Shown in pieces: positions 1,565 to 37,377 of a stretch of 37,377 bases of DNA. The translations under genes were made by a program, and so were the position numbers. The stretch lies in NCBI GenBank assembly GCA_000004985.1, contig GG739013.1; one strand, written 5' to 3'. Under the pieces are notes generated by a model. That model made no database searches and was not told where the DNA came from. It saw nothing but the letters and a program-made list of their open reading frames with translations. This DNA comes from Naegleria gruberi. Lineage: Eukaryota. Every line of letters starts with the position of its first letter. Position 1 is the stretch's first letter.

Positions 1565-1614
1565 NNNNNNNNNNNNNNNNNNNNNNNNNNNNNNNNNNNN
1601 NNNNNNNNNNNNNN
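1565..1614. other. assembly gap (50 N)
   Basis: Run of exactly 50 N, a conventional unknown-size scaffold gap. It interrupts an open + frame. Confidence 0.95.
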
Positions 1615-1630
1615 ATTAGTAAGAATGTAA

Positions 1631-1660
1631 ATTGCTGCTGGTGATATTTTGTGGAGAGAA
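1631..1660 (+). CDS. NlpC/P60 peptidase gene, short internal exon (IAAGDILWRE)
   Basis: Phase-0 codons immediately upstream of the GTAAGT donor at 1661. IAAGDILWRE aligns with the GDLVFFR(A) strand that precedes the catalytic His in NlpC/P60. The 5' boundary is unresolved because an in-frame TAA sits at 1628-1630 with no AG acceptor in between. Confidence 0.5.
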
Positions 1661-1768
1661 GTAAGTAGTAAGAGTGAAAACAATTGTTCTGAACTCTAGC
1701 TCAATTATTATTAATATTAATATTTATATATTTATATTGAATGAAAATTGAAATTTTTGATTAATTAG
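1661..1768 (+). other. spliceosomal intron (108 nt), GTAAGT...TTAATTAG
   Basis: Canonical donor and acceptor, about 85% AT interior. Removing it fuses the two NlpC/P60 motif blocks in frame. Confidence 0.7.
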
Positions 1769-1888
1769 GGACATGTTGGCATGTATCTTGGCAATGGACA
1801 AGTGGTTAATGCTGAAAATGAAAAGAATGGTGTTAAAATCAGAACTTTTGCCAATTTCAGATATACCAAGATTTATAGAGTTCTTTAA
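1769..1888 (+). CDS. NlpC/P60 (C40) family cell-wall peptidase, terminal exon
   Basis: Translation GHVGMYLGNGQVVNAENEKNGVKIRTFANFRYTKIYRVL* ends at TAA 1886-1888. It is near-collinear with the C-terminus of bacterial NlpC/P60 hydrolases ([14 protein letters not shown]...GV.IS.L...YW..RY..ARRVL) and includes the catalytic His. AATAAA overlaps the stop. Confidence 0.8.
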   Translation, partial: GHVGMYLGNGQVVNAENEKNGVKIRTFANFRYTKIYRVL

Positions 1889-1893
1889 ATAAA
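1888..1893 (+). promoter_or_regulatory. polyadenylation signal AATAAA
   Basis: AATAAA overlaps the TAA stop of the NlpC/P60 gene. Confidence 0.5.
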
Positions 1894-1995
1894 AACTCAA
1901 TTTATCTACCAAAAGAGAGAACTAAATTCTTGGCCTGTTTGACAAGCTGTTGATAATGAGGCTGTTATAGAGCAAAATTTAAACTCAAATGTGAA

Positions 1996-2076
1996 GCAGG
2001 GGTTCCCGAGTGGTCAAAGGGGGTAGACTCAAGTTCTACTGCGCAAGCTTCGTGGGTTCAAATCCCACCTTCTGCA
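1996..2076 (+). tRNA. tRNA-Leu(CAA), type II, intronless
   Basis: Cloverleaf folded by hand. Acceptor stem GCAGGGG/CTTCTGC with two G-U pairs; 3-bp D stem CCC/GGG with an AGTGGTCAAAG-type loop. Anticodon stem GTAGA/TCTAC, loop CTCAAGT, anticodon CAA at 2030-2032. Long variable arm. T stem GTGGG/CCCAC with TTCAAAT loop (B box GGTTCAAATCC); discriminator A73 as expected for Leu. TTTT terminator at 2079-2082. Confidence 0.9.
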
Positions 2077-2078
2077 AA

Positions 2079-2082
2079 TTTT
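2079..2082 (+). terminator. Pol III T4 terminator
   Basis: TTTT two nt after the tRNA discriminator; a second T5 run lies at 2086-2090. Confidence 0.6.
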
Positions 2083-3011
2083 GTATTTTTCTCCTTCAAC
2101 TTTTTGCCCTCGTCTCCTTTTAATATATCATTGTCTTCAATATCATGTATAGCATCTACTCTGAAAATATTGTCTAATGATATAAAGTAGTCATCAAGAA
2201 ATTCAACAATGATTACAAGCACCTCAAAATCCGTAAAGAATTTTTGTAAATTCAAAAAAAATATTGAACCAATTCCAAAATCCTTTTGTGATAATGTTGC
2301 AGGACAATTAATGCAAATGAAACCTTACATCGCGATTGTAAAACATTCACAATTAGGAATGATAAAATCCAAAACTAATTAATAGTTCGTTCAATAATTA
2401 TTTCACCCTTTTGGAATTCGACAAACTGTTTGAGTTCATTGTATTTCCAATACTTTATACAATCGACAACTTTCTATCGGAATCTCACAACACATGAATG
2501 TATACAACATTAGTGAATTATCCAATTCCAAGCCCATTCACAAAATGAGAAAGAAAATTCAAATTAGCATTTAGAAGATTCACTTTTTTTAATTAATTGT
2601 TCTGAAAAGTCTTTTGGAAACTATTCGAAATTCCAAAATGTCGTATCAAGTTCAATAATTTGTCATCAAACAAGGATCCAAAATTAACACTTCAGGAATA
2701 AAACGAGTCTCTTCCGGAATATCAATGATATTCATCCCAGATTTCTATTCGAAAGGCTCTTTAATAACTCGTTACAAAATAGTATCTGAAAAATATTCAT
2801 GTGTTAACAGAACACCATAAAAAGAGATGATCCATGAAATACAAAACATAATGAAAGCACTCTAATGTTGAATTATTGTTGAATTGTACACCTTTCGAAT
2901 AGTATCAAACCTTTCGTCTACCATCTTGTTCACTTTTAAAAACACAGTAGACGAAACATGGATTACAACAATATAAGGATTCTGTTCAAAACATGGGTTT
3001 AGCATACTTTA

Positions 3012-29089: not shown

Positions 29090-29164
29090 TATAATAGTGC
29101 AGGTGATAGACCAGCAGCAACAGTTTCGAGATTGGTTAAATATTTACAAACAACCAAACAATAA
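29090..29164 (+). CDS. possible 3' end of a gene lying in the gap (..YNSAGDRPAATVSRLVKYLQTTKQ*)
   Basis: 25 sense codons emerge from the gap and end at TAA 29162-29164. AATAAA at 29159-29164 overlaps the stop, the same arrangement as at the NlpC/P60 gene. The visible piece is too short for any domain call. Confidence 0.25.
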   Translation, partial: YNSAGDRPAATVSRLVKYLQTTKQ

Positions 29165-29221
29165 ATAGCTAAAATATGTTTATTAAGGCGAAGTAAGGAA
29201 TGATAAATTCATTTGGTGTAA

Positions 29222-29279
29222 TCGGGCGTGGTATAGTGGTAGCATTCCAGACTGTCACTCTGGCGACCCGGGTTCAATT
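29222..29279 (+). pseudogene. tRNA-Asp(GUC)-like 5' fragment, truncated in the T arm
   Basis: TCGGGCG-TG-GTAT-AGTGGTA-GCAT-T-CCAGA-CTGTCAC-TCTGG-CGAC-CCGGG-TTCAATT gives acceptor 5' strand, D arm, a good anticodon stem-loop (anticodon GTC at 29254-29256) and T stem 5' strand plus T loop. No complementary T-stem 3' strand or acceptor 3' strand follows; instead there is TTATGTAGTTTTAGG with a T-run. Confidence 0.4.
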
Positions 29280-29522
29280 TTATGTAGTTTTAGGTTTTGG
29301 AAATTTTAAATGAAAATTTATGTTCCAGCCTTTGTGGTCAATAAATACTAATCGTATTTAATTATGAATTAAGAGTTGCTCCAGAGGATCATGAAATGTT
29401 ATATCATGATTAAATCCAATGGAAATGTTTGAATTCTTCATTCATAGAAGATGAAAAATGTGTTTAGGTGGTATTGTTGTTCTATTAATTAATAAAAATT
29501 GAAATTTAAGGTACCAATCTGC

Positions 29523-29729
29523 ATGTTCACAAATCCCCCATTCACAAACCATGGCTGGAAAGGAATGCAGCAATCATCTATGAACGAGGAAACCTACAGC
29601 GAAGCATGTTTCCAGTTCGATATCATGCTCAAGATATGTGACTACAGAGTCTTCATCTTGGTTAACCTCAAAGGTCAGATTGACTCAAAAAAGTCGAGTT
29701 TATGTATTCCTACAGAAAAGATCCTGTAG
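29523..29729 (+). CDS. hypothetical small ORF (68 aa from first ATG; the track's M at 29499 is TTG)
   Basis: About 42% GC against roughly 28% in the flanks, with mixed C-ending codons. MFTNPPFTNHGWKGMQQSSMNEETYSEACFQFDIMLKICDYRVFILVNLKGQIDSKKSSLCIPTEKIL*. No domain recognised; it could equally be an exon of a larger gene. Confidence 0.25.
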   Translation: MFTNPPFTNHGWKGMQQSSMNEETYSEACFQFDIMLKICDYRVFILVNLKGQIDSKKSSLCIPTEKIL

Positions 29730-29969
29730 AAGTACAGTCAATGGTTTTATCAATCTTGCATCCTCAATGATGTTATATCGGTTGTGAAAGTGAGAAATGT
29801 TGTGAGGAAAAGTTATGGTTAAAAAATTGGGAAAAATTAGAAGACATATTCAAGAAAATATTTGAATGAGTTGGAGAAACACAAGAAAATGATAAATAAC
29901 TAAAAAACGACCTTGTGTGATTATTGATCTATTCCCATCTGAAAATCAAGTTGGTTGGCCAAACATGAA

Positions 29970-30050
29970 GCAGGGGTTCCCGAGTGGTCAAAGGGGGTAG
30001 ACTCAAGTTCTACTGCGCAAGCTTCGTGGGTTCAAATCCCACCTTCTGCA
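29970..30050 (+). tRNA. tRNA-Leu(CAA), second copy, 81/81 identical to 1996-2076
   Basis: Same cloverleaf, anticodon CAA at 30004-30006. The 10 nt immediately 5' (caaaCAtgaa vs caaaTGtgaa) and about 25 nt 3' of the terminator are also conserved between copies. TTTT at 30053-30056. Confidence 0.9.
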
Positions 30051-30052
30051 GC

Positions 30053-30056
30053 TTTT
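30053..30056 (+). terminator. Pol III T4 terminator
   Basis: TTTT three nt after the tRNA 3' end. Confidence 0.6.
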
Positions 30057-30206
30057 GCTTCTTTCTCCCTCAATATTTTTGGTAAGACCACCAGTTTCCT
30101 ATTTTTATTGTTCGTATGACGTCTAGTTTCTATGGTAAAAGTTTGATTCAATTCCATCAAGGCTCTATGAAGATAATCAATAAAGATAACACTGACCTCA
30201 AATACT

Positions 30207-30418
30207 AGCAAATAATGTTTTAAACTTTTCATTTCCAGTAAAAATACCTTTAAAAATTTCAAACAAACCAAAGATTGAGAAACAGCCGCTCATAGTTATT
30301 CTCTGAATGAAATGCCTTCTAGGAGCTACAGATCCGCATTGTTACAGCCGAATAAGGTTTTTGTGAATGACAATATGGAGAACATTTTGGAAATGAAAAG
30401 TTTAAAACATTATTTGCT
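30207..30418. mobile_element. foldback / MITE-like element: perfect 31-bp terminal inverted repeats flanking a 150-bp non-coding core
   Basis: Left arm 30207-30237 AGCAAATAATGTTTTAAACTTTTCATTTCCA is the exact reverse complement of 30388-30418, checked base by base. The interior has no ORF. No target-site duplication is evident (flanks ..aatact / tttcaag..). It lies between tRNA-Leu copy 2 and the stop codon of the minus-strand gene at 30432. Confidence 0.55.
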
Positions 30419-30431
30419 TTTCAAGTTCTAT

Positions 30432-31241
30432 TTATTTCCACAGATTTTTCAATGGAAAATTAAATTCTTTCGATTTTTCTATTAGTGAATGAATGATTGA
30501 CTTGTCAATTGAATCATTTTTGATGAGAACTTGGAGTGGATCTACCCTTTCAAATAAGGATATAAAAAACAACAAATAAATTCCATTTTCTATTGATAGT
30601 AACTTATCTGAATATAATTTGATGAAATAGTCCATAATTGGATAGGATCTGTTCAATGTGTATACAAGTTGTGTTTTTTTGAACAATTGGAAATAATCTG
30701 GTAAGACTTTACACAATCTTTCCAATAGTGGGATTGTAAAATTGTTGGAAAGCAATAATTGGTCAAAATATCTTGGGACAGCAATCAATAAACACACTAT
30801 AGTTCTGTGGTTTGTTTGAATTTTGTAAGCACCAATCCATTTTAAATGATTTTCAAAGTAGGTCATATAAATTGACAGTTCCTTCTCCCGACATGCAAGT
30901 TCTGTATTCAATTCAAACCACCATGCACTCATCAATATTTTGATTCTGTGATAGTGAAACTTTTTCATTAGTACTTCTTTTTCATTTTGATTTTTTGGGA
31001 TAGTCTGAGATAGAATAATCAATTGTTGGCAATTTTCTTTTGGAAGTGGTATTTTGTTCCTTCTCACTCTTGACAATAAAACAAATTTAGGATTATTTGA
31101 CTCGGAGATCATTGATGTGAAGGCATTCAGTAAATCATTGGTAGTGATTAATTGATAAAATTGAGGTTCATTCTTCAAAAGTGTATGCAGTTCGGAAAAA
31201 GGCAAGAATTTCAATATTAAAGATAGTATTTCCGTGGTAAG
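30432..31241 (-). CDS. terminal coding exon (about 269 aa) of a minus-strand gene whose upstream exons lie in the 31294-35320 gap; alpha-helical protein of unknown function
   Basis: Continuous ORF ending at TAA (plus 30432-30434). There is no ATG at its 5' end: the track's M at 31214 is TTG. An in-frame TAG at plus 31242-31244 coincides with a ..tgtgtatttattatgtaacTAG acceptor, so the exon starts in phase 0 at 31241 (LTTEILSLILKFLPFSELHTLLKNEPQFYQL...NLWK*). A/T-biased codon usage throughout. Confidence 0.6.
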   Translation of the reverse strand, partial: LTTEILSLILKFLPFSELHTLLKNEPQFYQLITTNDLLNAFTSMISESNNPKFVLLSRVRRNKIPLPKENCQQLIILSQTIPKNQNEKEVLMKKFHYHRIKILMSAWWFELNTELACREKELSIYMTYFENHLKWIGAYKIQTNHRTIVCLLIAVPRYFDQLLLSNNFTIPLLERLCKVLPDYFQLFKKTQLVYTLNRSYPIMDYFIKLYSDKLLSIENGIYLLFFISLFERVDPLQVLIKNDSIDKSIIHSLIEKSKEFNFPLKNLWK

Positions 31242-31293
31242 CTAGTTACATAATAAATACACATTTTTTAATGTTGCGTAATCCTCCCAAAAG

Positions 31294-34200
31294 NNNNNNN
31301 NNNNNNNNNNNNNNNNNNNNNNNNNNNNNNNNNNNNNNNNNNNNNNNNNNNNNNNNNNNNNNNNNNNNNNNNNNNNNNNNNNNNNNNNNNNNNNNNNNNN
31401 NNNNNNNNNNNNNNNNNNNNNNNNNNNNNNNNNNNNNNNNNNNNNNNNNNNNNNNNNNNNNNNNNNNNNNNNNNNNNNNNNNNNNNNNNNNNNNNNNNNN
31501 NNNNNNNNNNNNNNNNNNNNNNNNNNNNNNNNNNNNNNNNNNNNNNNNNNNNNNNNNNNNNNNNNNNNNNNNNNNNNNNNNNNNNNNNNNNNNNNNNNNN
31601 NNNNNNNNNNNNNNNNNNNNNNNNNNNNNNNNNNNNNNNNNNNNNNNNNNNNNNNNNNNNNNNNNNNNNNNNNNNNNNNNNNNNNNNNNNNNNNNNNNNN
31701 NNNNNNNNNNNNNNNNNNNNNNNNNNNNNNNNNNNNNNNNNNNNNNNNNNNNNNNNNNNNNNNNNNNNNNNNNNNNNNNNNNNNNNNNNNNNNNNNNNNN
31801 NNNNNNNNNNNNNNNNNNNNNNNNNNNNNNNNNNNNNNNNNNNNNNNNNNNNNNNNNNNNNNNNNNNNNNNNNNNNNNNNNNNNNNNNNNNNNNNNNNNN
31901 NNNNNNNNNNNNNNNNNNNNNNNNNNNNNNNNNNNNNNNNNNNNNNNNNNNNNNNNNNNNNNNNNNNNNNNNNNNNNNNNNNNNNNNNNNNNNNNNNNNN
32001 NNNNNNNNNNNNNNNNNNNNNNNNNNNNNNNNNNNNNNNNNNNNNNNNNNNNNNNNNNNNNNNNNNNNNNNNNNNNNNNNNNNNNNNNNNNNNNNNNNNN
32101 NNNNNNNNNNNNNNNNNNNNNNNNNNNNNNNNNNNNNNNNNNNNNNNNNNNNNNNNNNNNNNNNNNNNNNNNNNNNNNNNNNNNNNNNNNNNNNNNNNNN
32201 NNNNNNNNNNNNNNNNNNNNNNNNNNNNNNNNNNNNNNNNNNNNNNNNNNNNNNNNNNNNNNNNNNNNNNNNNNNNNNNNNNNNNNNNNNNNNNNNNNNN
32301 NNNNNNNNNNNNNNNNNNNNNNNNNNNNNNNNNNNNNNNNNNNNNNNNNNNNNNNNNNNNNNNNNNNNNNNNNNNNNNNNNNNNNNNNNNNNNNNNNNNN
32401 NNNNNNNNNNNNNNNNNNNNNNNNNNNNNNNNNNNNNNNNNNNNNNNNNNNNNNNNNNNNNNNNNNNNNNNNNNNNNNNNNNNNNNNNNNNNNNNNNNNN
32501 NNNNNNNNNNNNNNNNNNNNNNNNNNNNNNNNNNNNNNNNNNNNNNNNNNNNNNNNNNNNNNNNNNNNNNNNNNNNNNNNNNNNNNNNNNNNNNNNNNNN
32601 NNNNNNNNNNNNNNNNNNNNNNNNNNNNNNNNNNNNNNNNNNNNNNNNNNNNNNNNNNNNNNNNNNNNNNNNNNNNNNNNNNNNNNNNNNNNNNNNNNNN
32701 NNNNNNNNNNNNNNNNNNNNNNNNNNNNNNNNNNNNNNNNNNNNNNNNNNNNNNNNNNNNNNNNNNNNNNNNNNNNNNNNNNNNNNNNNNNNNNNNNNNN
32801 NNNNNNNNNNNNNNNNNNNNNNNNNNNNNNNNNNNNNNNNNNNNNNNNNNNNNNNNNNNNNNNNNNNNNNNNNNNNNNNNNNNNNNNNNNNNNNNNNNNN
32901 NNNNNNNNNNNNNNNNNNNNNNNNNNNNNNNNNNNNNNNNNNNNNNNNNNNNNNNNNNNNNNNNNNNNNNNNNNNNNNNNNNNNNNNNNNNNNNNNNNNN
33001 NNNNNNNNNNNNNNNNNNNNNNNNNNNNNNNNNNNNNNNNNNNNNNNNNNNNNNNNNNNNNNNNNNNNNNNNNNNNNNNNNNNNNNNNNNNNNNNNNNNN
33101 NNNNNNNNNNNNNNNNNNNNNNNNNNNNNNNNNNNNNNNNNNNNNNNNNNNNNNNNNNNNNNNNNNNNNNNNNNNNNNNNNNNNNNNNNNNNNNNNNNNN
33201 NNNNNNNNNNNNNNNNNNNNNNNNNNNNNNNNNNNNNNNNNNNNNNNNNNNNNNNNNNNNNNNNNNNNNNNNNNNNNNNNNNNNNNNNNNNNNNNNNNNN
33301 NNNNNNNNNNNNNNNNNNNNNNNNNNNNNNNNNNNNNNNNNNNNNNNNNNNNNNNNNNNNNNNNNNNNNNNNNNNNNNNNNNNNNNNNNNNNNNNNNNNN
33401 NNNNNNNNNNNNNNNNNNNNNNNNNNNNNNNNNNNNNNNNNNNNNNNNNNNNNNNNNNNNNNNNNNNNNNNNNNNNNNNNNNNNNNNNNNNNNNNNNNNN
33501 NNNNNNNNNNNNNNNNNNNNNNNNNNNNNNNNNNNNNNNNNNNNNNNNNNNNNNNNNNNNNNNNNNNNNNNNNNNNNNNNNNNNNNNNNNNNNNNNNNNN
33601 NNNNNNNNNNNNNNNNNNNNNNNNNNNNNNNNNNNNNNNNNNNNNNNNNNNNNNNNNNNNNNNNNNNNNNNNNNNNNNNNNNNNNNNNNNNNNNNNNNNN
33701 NNNNNNNNNNNNNNNNNNNNNNNNNNNNNNNNNNNNNNNNNNNNNNNNNNNNNNNNNNNNNNNNNNNNNNNNNNNNNNNNNNNNNNNNNNNNNNNNNNNN
33801 NNNNNNNNNNNNNNNNNNNNNNNNNNNNNNNNNNNNNNNNNNNNNNNNNNNNNNNNNNNNNNNNNNNNNNNNNNNNNNNNNNNNNNNNNNNNNNNNNNNN
33901 NNNNNNNNNNNNNNNNNNNNNNNNNNNNNNNNNNNNNNNNNNNNNNNNNNNNNNNNNNNNNNNNNNNNNNNNNNNNNNNNNNNNNNNNNNNNNNNNNNNN
34001 NNNNNNNNNNNNNNNNNNNNNNNNNNNNNNNNNNNNNNNNNNNNNNNNNNNNNNNNNNNNNNNNNNNNNNNNNNNNNNNNNNNNNNNNNNNNNNNNNNNN
34101 NNNNNNNNNNNNNNNNNNNNNNNNNNNNNNNNNNNNNNNNNNNNNNNNNNNNNNNNNNNNNNNNNNNNNNNNNNNNNNNNNNNNNNNNNNNNNNNNNNNN

Positions 34201-35320
34201 NNNNNNNNNNNNNNNNNNNNNNNNNNNNNNNNNNNNNNNNNNNNNNNNNNNNNNNNNNNNNNNNNNNNNNNNNNNNNNNNNNNNNNNNNNNNNNNNNNNN
34301 NNNNNNNNNNNNNNNNNNNNNNNNNNNNNNNNNNNNNNNNNNNNNNNNNNNNNNNNNNNNNNNNNNNNNNNNNNNNNNNNNNNNNNNNNNNNNNNNNNNN
34401 NNNNNNNNNNNNNNNNNNNNNNNNNNNNNNNNNNNNNNNNNNNNNNNNNNNNNNNNNNNNNNNNNNNNNNNNNNNNNNNNNNNNNNNNNNNNNNNNNNNN
34501 NNNNNNNNNNNNNNNNNNNNNNNNNNNNNNNNNNNNNNNNNNNNNNNNNNNNNNNNNNNNNNNNNNNNNNNNNNNNNNNNNNNNNNNNNNNNNNNNNNNN
34601 NNNNNNNNNNNNNNNNNNNNNNNNNNNNNNNNNNNNNNNNNNNNNNNNNNNNNNNNNNNNNNNNNNNNNNNNNNNNNNNNNNNNNNNNNNNNNNNNNNNN
34701 NNNNNNNNNNNNNNNNNNNNNNNNNNNNNNNNNNNNNNNNNNNNNNNNNNNNNNNNNNNNNNNNNNNNNNNNNNNNNNNNNNNNNNNNNNNNNNNNNNNN
34801 NNNNNNNNNNNNNNNNNNNNNNNNNNNNNNNNNNNNNNNNNNNNNNNNNNNNNNNNNNNNNNNNNNNNNNNNNNNNNNNNNNNNNNNNNNNNNNNNNNNN
34901 NNNNNNNNNNNNNNNNNNNNNNNNNNNNNNNNNNNNNNNNNNNNNNNNNNNNNNNNNNNNNNNNNNNNNNNNNNNNNNNNNNNNNNNNNNNNNNNNNNNN
35001 NNNNNNNNNNNNNNNNNNNNNNNNNNNNNNNNNNNNNNNNNNNNNNNNNNNNNNNNNNNNNNNNNNNNNNNNNNNNNNNNNNNNNNNNNNNNNNNNNNNN
35101 NNNNNNNNNNNNNNNNNNNNNNNNNNNNNNNNNNNNNNNNNNNNNNNNNNNNNNNNNNNNNNNNNNNNNNNNNNNNNNNNNNNNNNNNNNNNNNNNNNNN
35201 NNNNNNNNNNNNNNNNNNNNNNNNNNNNNNNNNNNNNNNNNNNNNNNNNNNNNNNNNNNNNNNNNNNNNNNNNNNNNNNNNNNNNNNNNNNNNNNNNNNN
35301 NNNNNNNNNNNNNNNNNNNN
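31294..35320. other. assembly gap (4,027 N)
   Basis: Uninterrupted N run. The ORFs spanning it are artefacts. Confidence 1.
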
Positions 35321-35933
35321 TCTCAAATTCCAAAGTGACGGATTTCTTTGCAGAATCAATTTTGGTAATTCTGGCAGATGTGTTTTGGAAACAAGGAGCA
35401 TAGGACCAACTAATTGGCTTGCCATCAATTTTAGCATTTCCAATAAATGATGGAACCCAATTTCTTCTATGATCTGGAGGCATTGGATCTGAGCTACTTT
35501 TTCCAAATTGTGTCTTGATTGACTTGTTATTTTCTTTTGACAATTGCCACAATGCCTTCCAACTCATTCTCTTCATAGTTCTAGCAATTGATCTCGTTCT
35601 CACAAAATCACCCTTCCTTTCCACAAGCATGGTCTCCGTCTTGTGATAGAGTGATTCACTCTCAGTATAATATCCATTACTTGGTGATGCATAAATATTT
35701 CCTCTCTCGTGATGTTCTTTATGATGATGAATATTATTGTTACTATTCAATAATTGTTGGGTAAACTTATTAAAAGTTTCCTTGTTAGAAGTTACATAGG
35801 TGAGTGAAGCCTCTTCATGATGATGATCAAACATCGGAATGGTTAATTTTGCATTTACAATTACAATTGATAGAATCAATAGTACAATATTTATCCAATT
35901 ATAAATAATAAAATTCTTCCCCCGCAACATCAT
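35321..35933 (-). CDS. 5' part of a gene encoding a signal-anchor (type II membrane or secreted) protein; 3' part lost in the gap
   Basis: The first real ATG pair is revcomp 35931-35933 / 35928-35930 after an A-rich leader; the track's M at 36068 is TTG. MMLRGKN + FIIYNWINIVLLILSIVIV (19-aa hydrophobic segment) + NAKLTIPMFDHHHEE... then His-rich and K/S-rich hydrophilic sequence with no intron. The ORF is still open at the gap edge. The topology is typical of Golgi glycosyltransferases, but no catalytic motif was recognised. Confidence 0.55.
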
Positions 35934-36186
35934 CTCTCTCTTATATTGTATTAAAAAAGTGATGTTGTTGTTTTTTGCTTTGGAGTTTTTAAGATTTTTT
36001 TTAAAATTAGAATTGATTTGGATTCTTGAAGTTGTTTTACAAAATGGTTGTTGTAAAGTAGAGTCCAATTTAGCTGTTTGTATACAATGTGATATTTCAT
36101 ATATAGAGAATAAGGAATGTATTCAATAAAGATATTTTCCCATCCAGCAAGGAAACGAAAGATCTTGTGCTTGTGATTTAGTGGGG

Positions 36187-36192
36187 TTTATT
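36187..36192 (-). promoter_or_regulatory. polyadenylation signal (AATAAA on minus strand) for the kinase gene
   Basis: Plus-strand TTTATT lies 30 nt downstream of the kinase stop codon. Confidence 0.45.
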
Positions 36193-36221
36193 GCTAGTTC
36201 CGTAATTAATGTTTCCAATAA

Positions 36222-36652
36222 TTATTGAAGCTTTACATTTCTGAGATTTCCAATACTGGCTTGAACTAATTTACAATCTTCTTCAGAAATTGGAGTTAAA
36301 TGGTTTAAATTTGGATATCTTTTGTATTTGTTTGGATTTTCGTAATAATCATCAACTTCCTTATCAATAATTATTTTGGTTTTATCGTCTAAATCATTTG
36401 TTGTTGGTCTCTTTTCAAAGTCCTCTTCTAGCATTAAAGGAAGAACTCTTTTGATTGTTGCATTTTCAATTTCAAGTTCGTTCAAGCATTGAACTACATT
36501 CGAATGATTTTCTAAATTTCTTATTCGTTTTCTAGATAACACTTCCAACATTACTAATCCTAAAGAGTAAATGTCACTTTCTGGAGGTACTCTACCTGTA
36601 TAATTAATTCCTTGATATTCAAATGGAGTTCTTCTTTCACTCGATCTGTATC
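36222..36652 (-). CDS. protein kinase gene, last exon (subdomains VIII-XI plus C-terminal tail)
   Basis: (R)YRSSERRTPFEYQGINYTGRVPPESDIYSLGLVMLEVLSRKRI...EEDFEKRPTTNDL...NVKLQ*. DIYSLG matches the subdomain IX DxWSxG motif and KRPT matches subdomain XI. Stop TAA at plus 36222-36224. Strongly A/T-biased synonymous sites. Confidence 0.8.
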
Positions 36653-36702
36653 CTTTTACAATTATTGAAATTCAATTCATTGACCAGCTGAGAAATATTT
36701 AC
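36653..36702 (-). other. spliceosomal intron (50 nt), GTAAAT...TTGTAAAAG on minus strand
   Basis: The upstream exon frame hits TGA at plus 36677-36679 while the downstream exon is in a different frame. Removing these 50 nt joins ..DGTLLT|R|YRSSERR.. in phase 1. The size matches the 53-nt intron at 9-61. Confidence 0.6.
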
Positions 36703-36874
36703 TTGTCAACAAAGTGCCATCATATTGTAAATAACTTTTCATCTTCTCATCAAAATGGGAAAACTCTGTGGATGTTTCAAAATCAATAAAAAACCAATGA
36801 TTGTCATATTTCACAATATTTTCAGGTTTGATATCATTATGTGTCAAATCAGAAAGCTCTAAAAACCTGAGCAT
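36703..36874 (-). CDS. protein kinase gene, exon with catalytic loop and DFG-equivalent
   Basis: MLRFLELSDLTHNDIKPENIVKYDNHWFFIDFETSTEFSHFDEKMKSYLQYDGTLLT. HNDIKPEN corresponds to the HRDLKPEN catalytic loop (Arg replaced by Asn) and IDFE to DFG (Gly replaced by Glu). The 5' limit is uncertain: the ATG at 36872-36874 is internal to the domain, not the gene start. Confidence 0.6.
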
Positions 36875-36879
36875 GGTTA

Positions 36880-37176
36880 AGTCTGCGCGTCAATTTCTGC
36901 AGCTTTTTGAGGATTTTCTAATAAATCAGCTAGGCACTCTCCTCTTAGACTAATTGAAAAGTTTGCTTTTTGCCATACTGACAAATTTAAAAATTTAAAT
37001 GGTGGATGAGGTTCTTCTCTTTTCACAACGTATCTAATGCCATTAATCGAGCCATATTTAATCTTTGGATTATCTTGTATTGCTATTTCATAATCTTTTG
37101 AAAAGGAAACACGATTGGTTGATACGCTTGTTGGGAAACTAGTTGAGTTTTCTTTTCTTGTTAGGAGAGCTCGTAT
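36880..37176 (-). CDS. protein kinase gene, upstream coding segment (N-lobe to subdomain V), in a different frame from the catalytic-loop exon
   Basis: Open frame from TGA at 37177-37179 to TAA at 36877-36879: ..NRVSFSKDYEIAIQDNPKIKYGSINGIRYVVKREEPHPPFKFLNLSVWQKANFSISLRGECLADLLENPQKAAEIDAQT*. GECLADLL fits the subdomain V GSLxDLL motif. It abuts exon 36703-36874 with a -1 frame offset and no possible GT donor between them, so this is a frameshift rather than an intron. The 5' exon(s) with the Gly loop and VAIK lysine are not identified in 37177-37377. Confidence 0.4.
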
Positions 37177-37377
37177 TCATTTCTTGGGTTTGTTCGGTAG
37201 TGAGATATTTCACAACTTGAGCAACTTGTGGAAAGCATAAATTTGAAATTATGGAAACAAGATCTATACTTTGCTTTAGATTAAATTACTATAAGAACCA
37301 AAATATGTCAAAGTAAAAGCCAGCTTAATGTTTCATCAACAATACAGTGAACGCCAAACTCAATTACATTTCAGCTA

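What the first reader, a model, noticed from the sequence alone, without database searches (positions are those of the whole stretch)
30207..30418. Perfect 31-bp inverted repeats around a 150-bp core: foldback or MITE-like element lodged between a tRNA gene and a gene's stop codon
30207-30237 and 30388-30418 are exact reverse complements; a chance 31/31 match is essentially impossible. The 212-bp unit has no coding capacity. It begins 157 bp downstream of tRNA-Leu(CAA) and ends 14 bp from the stop codon of the minus-strand gene, inside its presumptive 3' UTR. In some protists, notably Dictyostelium, mobile elements insert at fixed distances from tRNA genes. I could not find a target-site duplication, so a long 3'-UTR hairpin or small-RNA precursor is an alternative reading. 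The transcribed RNA would form a 31-bp perfect stem.
Basis: seen in the sequence. Interest (0 to 1): 0.5.

Follow-up and report, generated by a model that had tools for sequence, protein, structure and literature searches.

The report
Lone 212-bp inverted-repeat unit, origin unresolved
A perfect 31-bp inverted repeat around a 150-bp spacer really does sit between a leucine tRNA gene and the end of a neighbouring gene in a Naegleria-like amoeba genome, but nothing available shows whether it is a small transposon or just a local hairpin, so it stays a modest curiosity.

Summary
Positions 30207-30237 and 30388-30418 are 31/31 complementary, with sharp ends and a 150-nt spacer. The unit starts 157 bp after tRNA-Leu(CAA) and ends 14 bp before the TAA of a minus-strand gene.

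What it is remains open. About 80% of the window is N, leaving 7.2 kb readable. The arm has no hit in three public DNA collections, and no orthologous locus could be fetched.

The neighbouring gene has two detectable relatives, the named one from Naegleria gruberi, so the host is a heterolobosean, not Dictyostelium.

- **For a MITE-like element:** the size, perfect terminal repeats, lack of coding capacity, and homology with the second tRNA-Leu locus that stops within about 5 bp of the unit's left edge.
- **Against a MITE-like element:** no target-site duplication (best 7/11), no second copy seen, and no match to the terminal motifs of the transposon superfamilies I know.
- **tRNA targeting:** the second, identical tRNA-Leu gene has nothing at the same offset, so this is not supported.
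- **Spacer:** it is not a structured RNA and matches no Rfam family.

Best guess is a young non-autonomous DNA-transposon-like insertion (0.4). A non-mobile local hairpin is close behind (0.35). Interest is low to moderate.

The parts
30207..30237 (.). Left (tRNA-proximal) arm of the inverted repeat, 31 nt, 23% G+C
   Evidence: 31/31 complementary, 0 of 100 shuffles match; composition.
30238..30387 (.). 150-nt spacer/core, 35% G+C (43-47% in the middle). No structure of its own and no known RNA family.
   Evidence: composition; folded alone, z = +2.55 (- strand) and +0.17 (+ strand); no Rfam match with E<1.
30388..30418 (.). Right (gene-proximal) arm of the inverted repeat, 31 nt
29970..30050 (+). 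tRNA-Leu(CAA), followed by a T4 run. Convergent with the neighbouring protein gene. The unit starts 157 bp after it.
   Evidence: ARAGORN; Rfam tRNA, 48.7 bits.
30051..30206 (+). 3' flank of the tRNA gene, paralogous to the flank of the second tRNA-Leu gene (2077-2232). The homology is strongest just before the unit and ends within about 5 bp of its left edge.
   Evidence: 52% ungapped identity for +30..+157 against 28 +/- 4% background; 28/40 in the last 40 nt (0 of 6627 other placements reach it), 13/31 in the arm (p=0.10), 9/30 beyond. (alignment).
30432..31264 (-). F-box-like gene. The F-box call is by eye only, with no Pfam match. ATG at 31264, stop TAA at 30434-30432. A 1-nt frameshift lies near 31233-31235. 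AATAAA at 30436-30431 overlaps the stop codon.
   Evidence: ORF and sequence; no Pfam match; only two homologues among 1.84 billion representatives; N. gruberi XP_002681992; the repaired N-terminus and the C-terminus align with the homologues.
1996..2076 (+). Second, identical tRNA-Leu(CAA) gene. It serves as a paralogous comparison site and has no inverted-repeat unit at +157.
   Evidence: One search found only degenerate 71%-complementary repeats there, no better than others in the island.
30250..30274 (+). 25-nt stretch of the core that matches the sense strand of the neighbouring CDS (30828-30804) at 22/25. Significance is marginal.
   Evidence: 2 of 300 shuffles reach the ungapped score; 8% of shuffles reach the score with gapped scoring.

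Best explanation
The unit is most likely a young, non-autonomous DNA-transposon-like insertion (MITE-like). It has two perfect 31-bp terminal inverted repeats around a non-coding 150-bp core. It lies in the 381-bp spacer between the 3' ends of a tRNA-Leu(CAA) gene and an F-box-like gene in a Naegleria-like heterolobosean genome.

The anatomy and the position are shown. Three steps are inferred:
- A transposase supplied in trans recognised the two arms and pasted the unit here.
- The arms are still identical because the event is recent.
- The unit has no function of its own.

If read-through transcription covers it, the RNA would form a 31-bp perfect duplex with a floppy 150-nt loop and would be a potential Dicer substrate. 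AATAAA overlaps the stop codon. If that hexamer is used as a poly(A) signal here, the mRNA would probably end at or inside the proximal arm, before the full hairpin is made.
For: - **Real, non-chance repeat:** perfect 31/31 arms with abrupt ends on both sides.
- **Arms only:** the whole signal lies in the arms. The core is no more structured than shuffles and matches no RNA family.
- **No coding capacity:** only short ORFs touch the unit.
- **MITE-like size and composition:** 212 bp with AT-rich arms.
- **Insertion-like discontinuity:** homology with the paralogous tRNA-Leu flank is 70% in the 40 nt up to the left edge and falls to background inside the unit.
- **Gene untouched:** the neighbouring gene keeps its native C-terminus 14 bp away.
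- **Arms younger than the neighbourhood:** the arms are 100% identical while the tRNA flanks have diverged to 52%.
- **Transposons exist in the lineage:** DNA transposons are reported in Naegleria (PMC6125883, PMC9587614).
Against: - **No target-site duplication:** there is no exact flank match of 2-12 bp. The best is 7/11, roughly p=0.02 before correcting for 11 lengths tried. A young insertion with perfect repeats should have a perfect duplication.
- **No Spy-type site:** Spy elements, which make no duplication, insert at AAA|TTT (PMC4122938). The left flank here ends in ACT.
- **No superfamily match:** from my own knowledge, the termini AGCAAAT...ATTTGCT fit no superfamily motif. The one partial fit is the RR...YY ends of Kolobok, and the required TTAA is absent.
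- **No second copy:** none is seen in the 7.2 kb readable or in any public collection searched.
- **Homology does not resume:** it is not found again on the right side of the unit, so the paralogous site is not a clean empty site.
- **Repeat-poor lineage:** Naegleria genomes carry 2.5-5.1% repeats (PMC6125883).
Confidence: 0.4

Rival explanations
1. A non-mobile local inverted repeat. A short inverted duplication arose in place, by template switching or fold-back repair, or it is kept perfect by templated correction between the arms. If it does anything, it acts as a hairpin at the shared 3' ends of two convergent genes. That could mean a transcription or 3'-end barrier, or a source of small RNAs from the 31-bp duplex.
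For: - The absence of any target-site duplication is what this model predicts.
- The unit lies exactly between two convergent 3' ends, 14 bp after a stop codon that is overlapped by AATAAA.
- There is a weak hint that paralogy continues into the first 20 nt of the left arm: 11/20, empirical p=0.018, chosen after the fact. The maximum-likelihood change point is 30227.
- The core shares 22/25 nt with the neighbouring CDS, which would fit a local origin.
- Only one copy is seen.
Against: - Identity over the whole left arm is not significant (13/31, p=0.10).
- The 25-nt match is not robust: 8% of shuffles reach it with gapped scoring.
- A selected RNA stem would normally tolerate wobbles, and its loop would not be 150 nt of unstructured sequence.
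- No other gene end in the readable window has a comparable hairpin.
- No conservation data could be obtained.
Confidence: 0.35
2. An assembly or sequencing artefact. The inverted copy of 31 bp would not exist in the real genome.
For: - The scaffold is poor: 80% N, with islands of 1.4-2.2 kb.
- At least two genes carry apparent 1-nt frameshifts.
- 31 is a common k-mer size in assemblers (my own knowledge).
Against: - The same assembly keeps two copies of an 85-nt exact repeat apart, so 31 bp is not its resolution limit.
- Both flanks are unique and biologically coherent right up to the arms: a paralogous tRNA flank on the left and an intact gene C-terminus on the right.
- Fold-back chimeras from amplification continue as a long inverted copy rather than stopping after 31 bp (my own knowledge).
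Confidence: 0.08
3. A mobile element that targets tRNA genes, inserting at a fixed distance downstream of them as in Dictyostelium.
For: The unit starts 157 bp downstream of a tRNA gene. Dictyostelid TRE3 and Skipper-2 elements sit roughly 100 bp (7-136 bp) downstream of tRNA genes (PMC5006619).
Against: - Those elements are non-LTR or LTR retrotransposons without terminal inverted repeats (PMC5006619).
- The host is a heterolobosean.
- The identical second tRNA-Leu gene has no unit at the same offset.
- The truncated tRNA-Asp-like fragment has none either.
Confidence: 0.03
4. A small structured RNA gene (snoRNA-like or other) carried in the spacer, with the long stem serving for its processing.
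For: The unit lies in a cluster of small-RNA genes: a tRNA-Asp-like fragment, U3 snoRNA and tRNA-Leu. The middle of the core is richer in G+C than its surroundings.
Against: - No Rfam family matches at E<1.
- The core folds no better than shuffles on either strand, and worse than shuffles on the minus strand.
- It shares no motif of 9 nt or more with the U3 upstream region.
Confidence: 0.03

Closest known systems
MITEs (miniature inverted-repeat transposable elements, non-autonomous class II transposons)
   Same: Length of about 200 bp, perfect terminal inverted repeats, no coding capacity, AT-rich ends, and a location in a short intergenic spacer next to a gene's 3' end.
   Different: No target-site duplication, no second copy demonstrated, and termini that fit no known superfamily motif. 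No MITE has been described in Naegleria in the searchable literature.
Spy transposons (PHIS superfamily), which insert without a target-site duplication (PMC4122938)
   Same: Terminal inverted repeats without any flanking duplication. The right flank begins with TTT.
   Different: Spy inserts precisely between AAA and TTT, and here the left flank ends in ACT. Spy is known only from invertebrates, and no transposase could be looked for here.
Dictyostelid tRNA-gene-targeting retrotransposons (TRE3, Skipper-2; PMC5006619)
   Same: Position roughly 100-150 bp downstream of a tRNA gene in a compact protist genome.
   Different: Those are retrotransposons several kb long without terminal inverted repeats. 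The host here belongs to a different supergroup. The paralogous identical tRNA gene is unoccupied.
Endogenous hairpin-RNA or inverted-repeat small-RNA loci
   Same: A perfect 31-bp duplex would form in any transcript that spans the unit. The literature search with 'Dicer' and 'small RNAs' returned papers that also mention Naegleria, but I did not read them, so whether Naegleria has RNAi machinery is unchecked.
   Different: The stem is short and the loop very long (150 nt) for such loci. No small-RNA data exist here. The stem has no other match in the window.
Kolobok DNA transposons, reported in Naegleria (PMC9587614)
   Same: Termini are 5'-RR ... YY-3' (here AG ... CT).
   Different: Kolobok makes TTAA duplications, and the flanks here are TACT and TTTC.

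Membership tests
MITE / non-autonomous cut-and-paste DNA transposon | Terminal inverted repeats | tested here: met
   31/31 complementary arms at the exact ends of the unit.
MITE / non-autonomous cut-and-paste DNA transposon | Target-site duplication directly flanking the repeats | tested here: not met
   No exact match for lengths 2-12. The best is 7/11 (CCTCAAATACT vs TTTCAAGTTCT). A TA...TT arrangement is one base short of a TA duplication.
MITE / non-autonomous cut-and-paste DNA transposon | Small size and no coding capacity | tested here: met
   212 bp; only 31-aa and 57-aa ORFs overlap it.
MITE / non-autonomous cut-and-paste DNA transposon | Multiple dispersed copies in the genome | not testable with these tools
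   Only 7.2 kb of the window is readable. There are no further copies there, 0 hits for the arm in the viral, metagenome and prokaryote-genome collections, and the source genome is not in the protein collection.
MITE / non-autonomous cut-and-paste DNA transposon | An empty site at a paralogous or orthologous locus | tested here: inconclusive
   The paralogous tRNA-Leu flank is homologous up to about 5 bp from the left edge, but homology does not resume on the right. The orthologous locus could not be fetched.
tRNA-gene-targeting retroelements of dictyostelids (TRE3 / Skipper-2) | Retroelement structure, and consistent occupancy at a fixed distance from tRNA genes | tested here: not met
   This is a 212-bp unit with terminal inverted repeats and no ORF. 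The second identical tRNA-Leu gene is unoccupied at the same offset. Family features are taken from PMC5006619.
Spy (transposons without target-site duplication) | Insertion exactly between host AAA and TTT | tested here: not met
   The flanks are ...ATACT | TTTCA.... The family feature is taken from PMC4122938.
Foldback elements | Long terminal repeats built of tandem subrepeats, with little or no spacer | tested here: not met
   The arms are 31 bp of unique sequence without subrepeats, and the spacer is 150 nt. The family definition comes from my own knowledge.
Known structured RNA families (Rfam 15) | Match to a covariance model | tested here: not met
   No match with E<1 in 30051-30440. 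The best is 16.6 bits, E=1.3, to an unrelated lncRNA model.
Hairpin-RNA / small-RNA precursor | Small RNAs mapping to the stem | not testable with these tools
   No expression data are available. Only the folding potential is shown.

The most novel reading that the evidence does not exclude
The unit is not a transposon but an endogenous hairpin module in the 3' region of the F-box-like gene. Read-through transcripts would form a 31-bp perfect duplex that is diced, and the loop would carry a 22/25-nt antisense match to the gene's own coding region. Together these would make a self-targeting, cis-encoded regulator in a heterolobosean. Alternatively, it could be the first member of a family of terminal-inverted-repeat elements in Naegleria that insert without a target-site duplication.
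Probability: 0.08. Interest if true: 0.5.

Novelty: new member of a known kind. Interest (0 to 1): 0.22.

Why it matters
If it is a MITE, it would be an early example of such an element in Heterolobosea, a repeat-poor and little-studied lineage. Its lack of a target-site duplication would then be worth a closer look. If it is a conserved hairpin, it would point to RNA-level control or transcription insulation between convergent Pol III and Pol II genes in Naegleria-like amoebae. In either case it is a single small locus with no sign of unusual biology so far.

Tried and rejected
- **Searching for copies of the arm.** An exact 24-mer of the arm gave 0 hits in viral contigs, metagenome contigs and genome contigs.
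- **Searching for relatives through the tRNA.** A 32-nt tRNA-Leu pattern in the metagenomes returned only two AT-rich tRNA-cluster contigs that look like giant viruses (L001, L002). They are not relatives of the window and carry no copy of the unit.
- **Word-indexed protein searches.** Searches with the neighbouring gene, the kinase-like gene and the 267-aa ORF all returned nothing.
- **Exhaustive protein search.** It found two homologues of the neighbouring gene. The N. gruberi locus is not on record. The Logan contig ends 56 bp after the gene. Conservation of the hairpin therefore could not be tested.
- **Ciliate genetic code.** Under table 6 the minus-strand frame stays open across the whole unit as far as the TGA at 30200-30198. 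I rejected this reading because all convincing ORFs lack internal TAA or TAG, and the homologue ends at the same C-terminus.
- **Degenerate copy of the unit downstream of the other tRNA-Leu.** Only 71%-complementary repeats occur there, no better than others in the same island.
- **Shared promoter motifs with the U3 upstream region.** None of 9 nt or more.
- **Gapped extension of the 25-nt core/CDS match.** Not significant.
- **Artefact at k-mer size 31.** Disfavoured, because an 85-nt exact repeat is kept as two separate copies in the same assembly.
- **Literature.** No paper in the searchable library describes MITEs in Naegleria.

Full report
**1.
The window is mostly masked or gap sequence: 30155 of 37377 bases are N. 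Four readable islands remain: 1-1564, 1615-3011, 29090-31293 and 35321-37377.

In the third island, 30207-30237 and 30388-30418 are 31/31 complementary with 150 nt between them. With up to three mismatches allowed, the arm occurs nowhere else in the window, and none of 100 shuffles gave a match. The repeat stops abruptly at both ends: T opposite T outside, G opposite T inside. The only other long exact repeat in the window is the 85-nt tRNA duplication.

The unit folds far better than shuffled controls, with RNA z = -6.2 and -4.9 and DNA z = -7.65. All of that comes from the arms. The 150-nt core alone folds no better than shuffles on the plus strand (z = +0.17) and worse than all 200 shuffles on the minus strand (z = +2.55).

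**2. The surroundings.**
The island carries a small-RNA gene cluster:
- a tRNA-Asp(GUC)-like fragment, truncated at its 3' end, starting at 29222 (20.2 bits, below threshold);
- a full-length U3 snoRNA at 29513-29741 on the minus strand (75.5 bits);
- tRNA-Leu(CAA) at 29970-30050 on the plus strand, followed by a T4 run.

The unit starts 157 bp after the tRNA. It ends 14 bp before the TAA (30434-30432) of a minus-strand ORF.

That ORF has no Pfam match and no hit in the word-indexed protein search. The exhaustive search found exactly two relatives among 1.84 billion representatives. One is Naegleria gruberi XP_002681992, at 45% identity. The other comes from an unnamed Logan contig, at 38% identity.

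Aligning the three proteins gives three results:
- The real start is the ATG at 31264.
- One base is missing near 31233-31235. With it restored, the N-terminus reads MCIYYVTSLPPEILSLIL against MSFCYLDVLPPEIITLIL.
- The stop codon is the native C-terminus.

The host is therefore a heterolobosean close to Naegleria. The genetic code is standard, because the convincing ORFs contain no internal TAA or TAG. The unit lies just past an intact gene end. AATAAA (30436-30431) overlaps the stop codon. If that hexamer is used as a poly(A) signal here, which I have not checked for Naegleria, cleavage would fall at or inside the proximal arm. This last step is inference.

**3. The comparison available inside the window.**
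A second, identical tRNA-Leu(CAA) lies at 1996-2076. At the same offset, the two 3' flanks are 52% identical without gaps from +30 to +157, against a background of 28 +/- 4%. No other diagonal between the two islands stands out.

Identity changes across the left edge of the unit as follows:

| Segment | Matches | How often other placements reach it |
|---|---|---|
| Last 40 nt before the unit | 28/40 | 0 of 6627 |
| Left arm | 13/31 | p = 0.10 |
| After the arm | 9/30 | background |

A change-point fit puts the end of homology at about 30227, with support from 30223 to 30243. That rests on 11/20 matches in the first part of the arm (p = 0.018, chosen after the fact). The strong homology visibly ends at ACCTCAAA (30195-30202).

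Homology does not resume to the right of the unit. This gives a discontinuity close to the left edge, as an insertion would produce, but not a clean empty site. The second tRNA-Leu gene has nothing comparable at +157, so fixed-distance targeting of tRNA genes is not supported.

**4. Tests of the transposon reading.**
Terminal repeats, size and lack of coding capacity fit. A target-site duplication does not:
- No exact flank match of 2-12 bp exists, and the best is 7/11.
- A TA...TT arrangement is one base short of a TA duplication.
- The flanks lack TTAA, the target of Kolobok and piggyBac (PMC9587614).
- The flanks lack AAA|TTT, the target of Spy (PMC4122938).

Copy number cannot be measured. 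There is no further copy in the readable 7.2 kb, none in the fetched loci and none in three public collections. Naegleria genomes are repeat-poor but do carry DNA transposons (PMC6125883). No Naegleria MITE is described in the searchable literature.

**5. Tests of the other readings.**
- **Structured RNA gene:** no Rfam match, an unstructured core and no motif shared with the U3 promoter region.
- **Local origin:** the core shares 22/25 nt with the sense strand of the neighbouring CDS. This is marginal: 2 of 300 shuffles reach the ungapped score, and 8% reach it with gapped scoring.
- **Artefact:** the scaffold is poor and at least two genes have apparent frameshifts. Even so, the assembly keeps two copies of an 85-nt exact repeat apart, and both flanks are coherent right up to the arms.

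**6. Verdict.**
The repeat is real and was made by a duplication-type event, not by chance. The evidence cannot separate a young MITE-like insertion from an inverted repeat formed in place.
- **MITE-like insertion (0.4):** favoured by the shape of the unit and by the homology break at its edge. It is weakened by the missing target-site duplication.
- **Inverted repeat formed in place (0.35):** favoured by the missing duplication and by the position between two convergent 3' ends. It has no positive functional evidence.
- **Artefact:** about 0.08.

The Dictyostelium-style tRNA-targeting idea is not supported. If the unit is a transposon, it is a new member of a known kind. Interest is low to moderate, and a search of the full source genome would settle the question quickly.

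Noticed in passing
window 1565-1614, 3012-29089, 31294-35320: About 80% of the window is N, in runs of 50, 26078 and 4027 bases. Only 7.2 kb can be read, so any statement about copy number or context inside the window is very limited.
   Followed up: yes
window 29513-29741 (-) and 29970-30050 (+): A full-length U3 snoRNA gene (75.5 bits) lies head-to-head with the tRNA-Leu(CAA) gene, 228 bp apart. From my own knowledge, this arrangement recalls the tRNA-linked small-RNA genes of trypanosomatids.
   Followed up: partly
window 29222-~29280 (+): A tRNA-Asp(GUC)-like sequence matches the tRNA model up to the T-loop and then breaks off (20.2 bits, below threshold). It is probably a truncated tRNA pseudogene at an old breakpoint.
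   Followed up: partly
window 1986-2232 vs 29960-30206: The two tRNA-Leu(CAA) genes are identical over 85 nt. Their 3' flanks stay about 52% identical without any indel for about 155 bp, while the upstream flanks are unrelated. This could be an old segmental duplication of the tRNA with its downstream flank, or a spacing-constrained downstream element.
   Followed up: partly
window 31233-31235 (-) and about 36880-36890 (-), also about 37140-37180 (-): There are apparent single-base frameshifts in the F-box-like gene and in a kinase-like gene. For the F-box-like gene, restoring one base gives LPPEIL, which matches the homologues. The cause could be sequencing errors in a low-quality scaffold or decaying pseudogenes.
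   Followed up: partly
window 36653-36684 (-): A candidate 32-nt GT...AG intron would join two reading frames of the kinase-like gene in frame.
   Followed up: no
window 30432-31264 (-); P0001, P0002: The neighbouring F-box-like protein belongs to a very narrow family. Only two homologues were found among 1.84 billion representative proteins: one from Naegleria gruberi and one on a Logan contig from run SRR25266766. The word-indexed search missed both.
   Followed up: yes
L001 1976-2037 and L002 1065-1132: The window's tRNA-Leu(CAA) is 94-96% identical over 62-68 nt to tRNAs in two AT-rich metagenome contigs that carry tRNA clusters. By eye, L001 also carries a papain-like protease coding region. 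These look like giant-virus fragments, which hints at tRNA exchange between such viruses and heterolobosean-like hosts.
   Followed up: no
window 30250-30274 vs 30804-30828: A 25-nt stretch of the spacer matches the sense strand of the adjacent coding region at 22/25. A transcript through the unit would therefore carry a short antisense match to its own CDS. Statistical support is marginal.
   Followed up: yes
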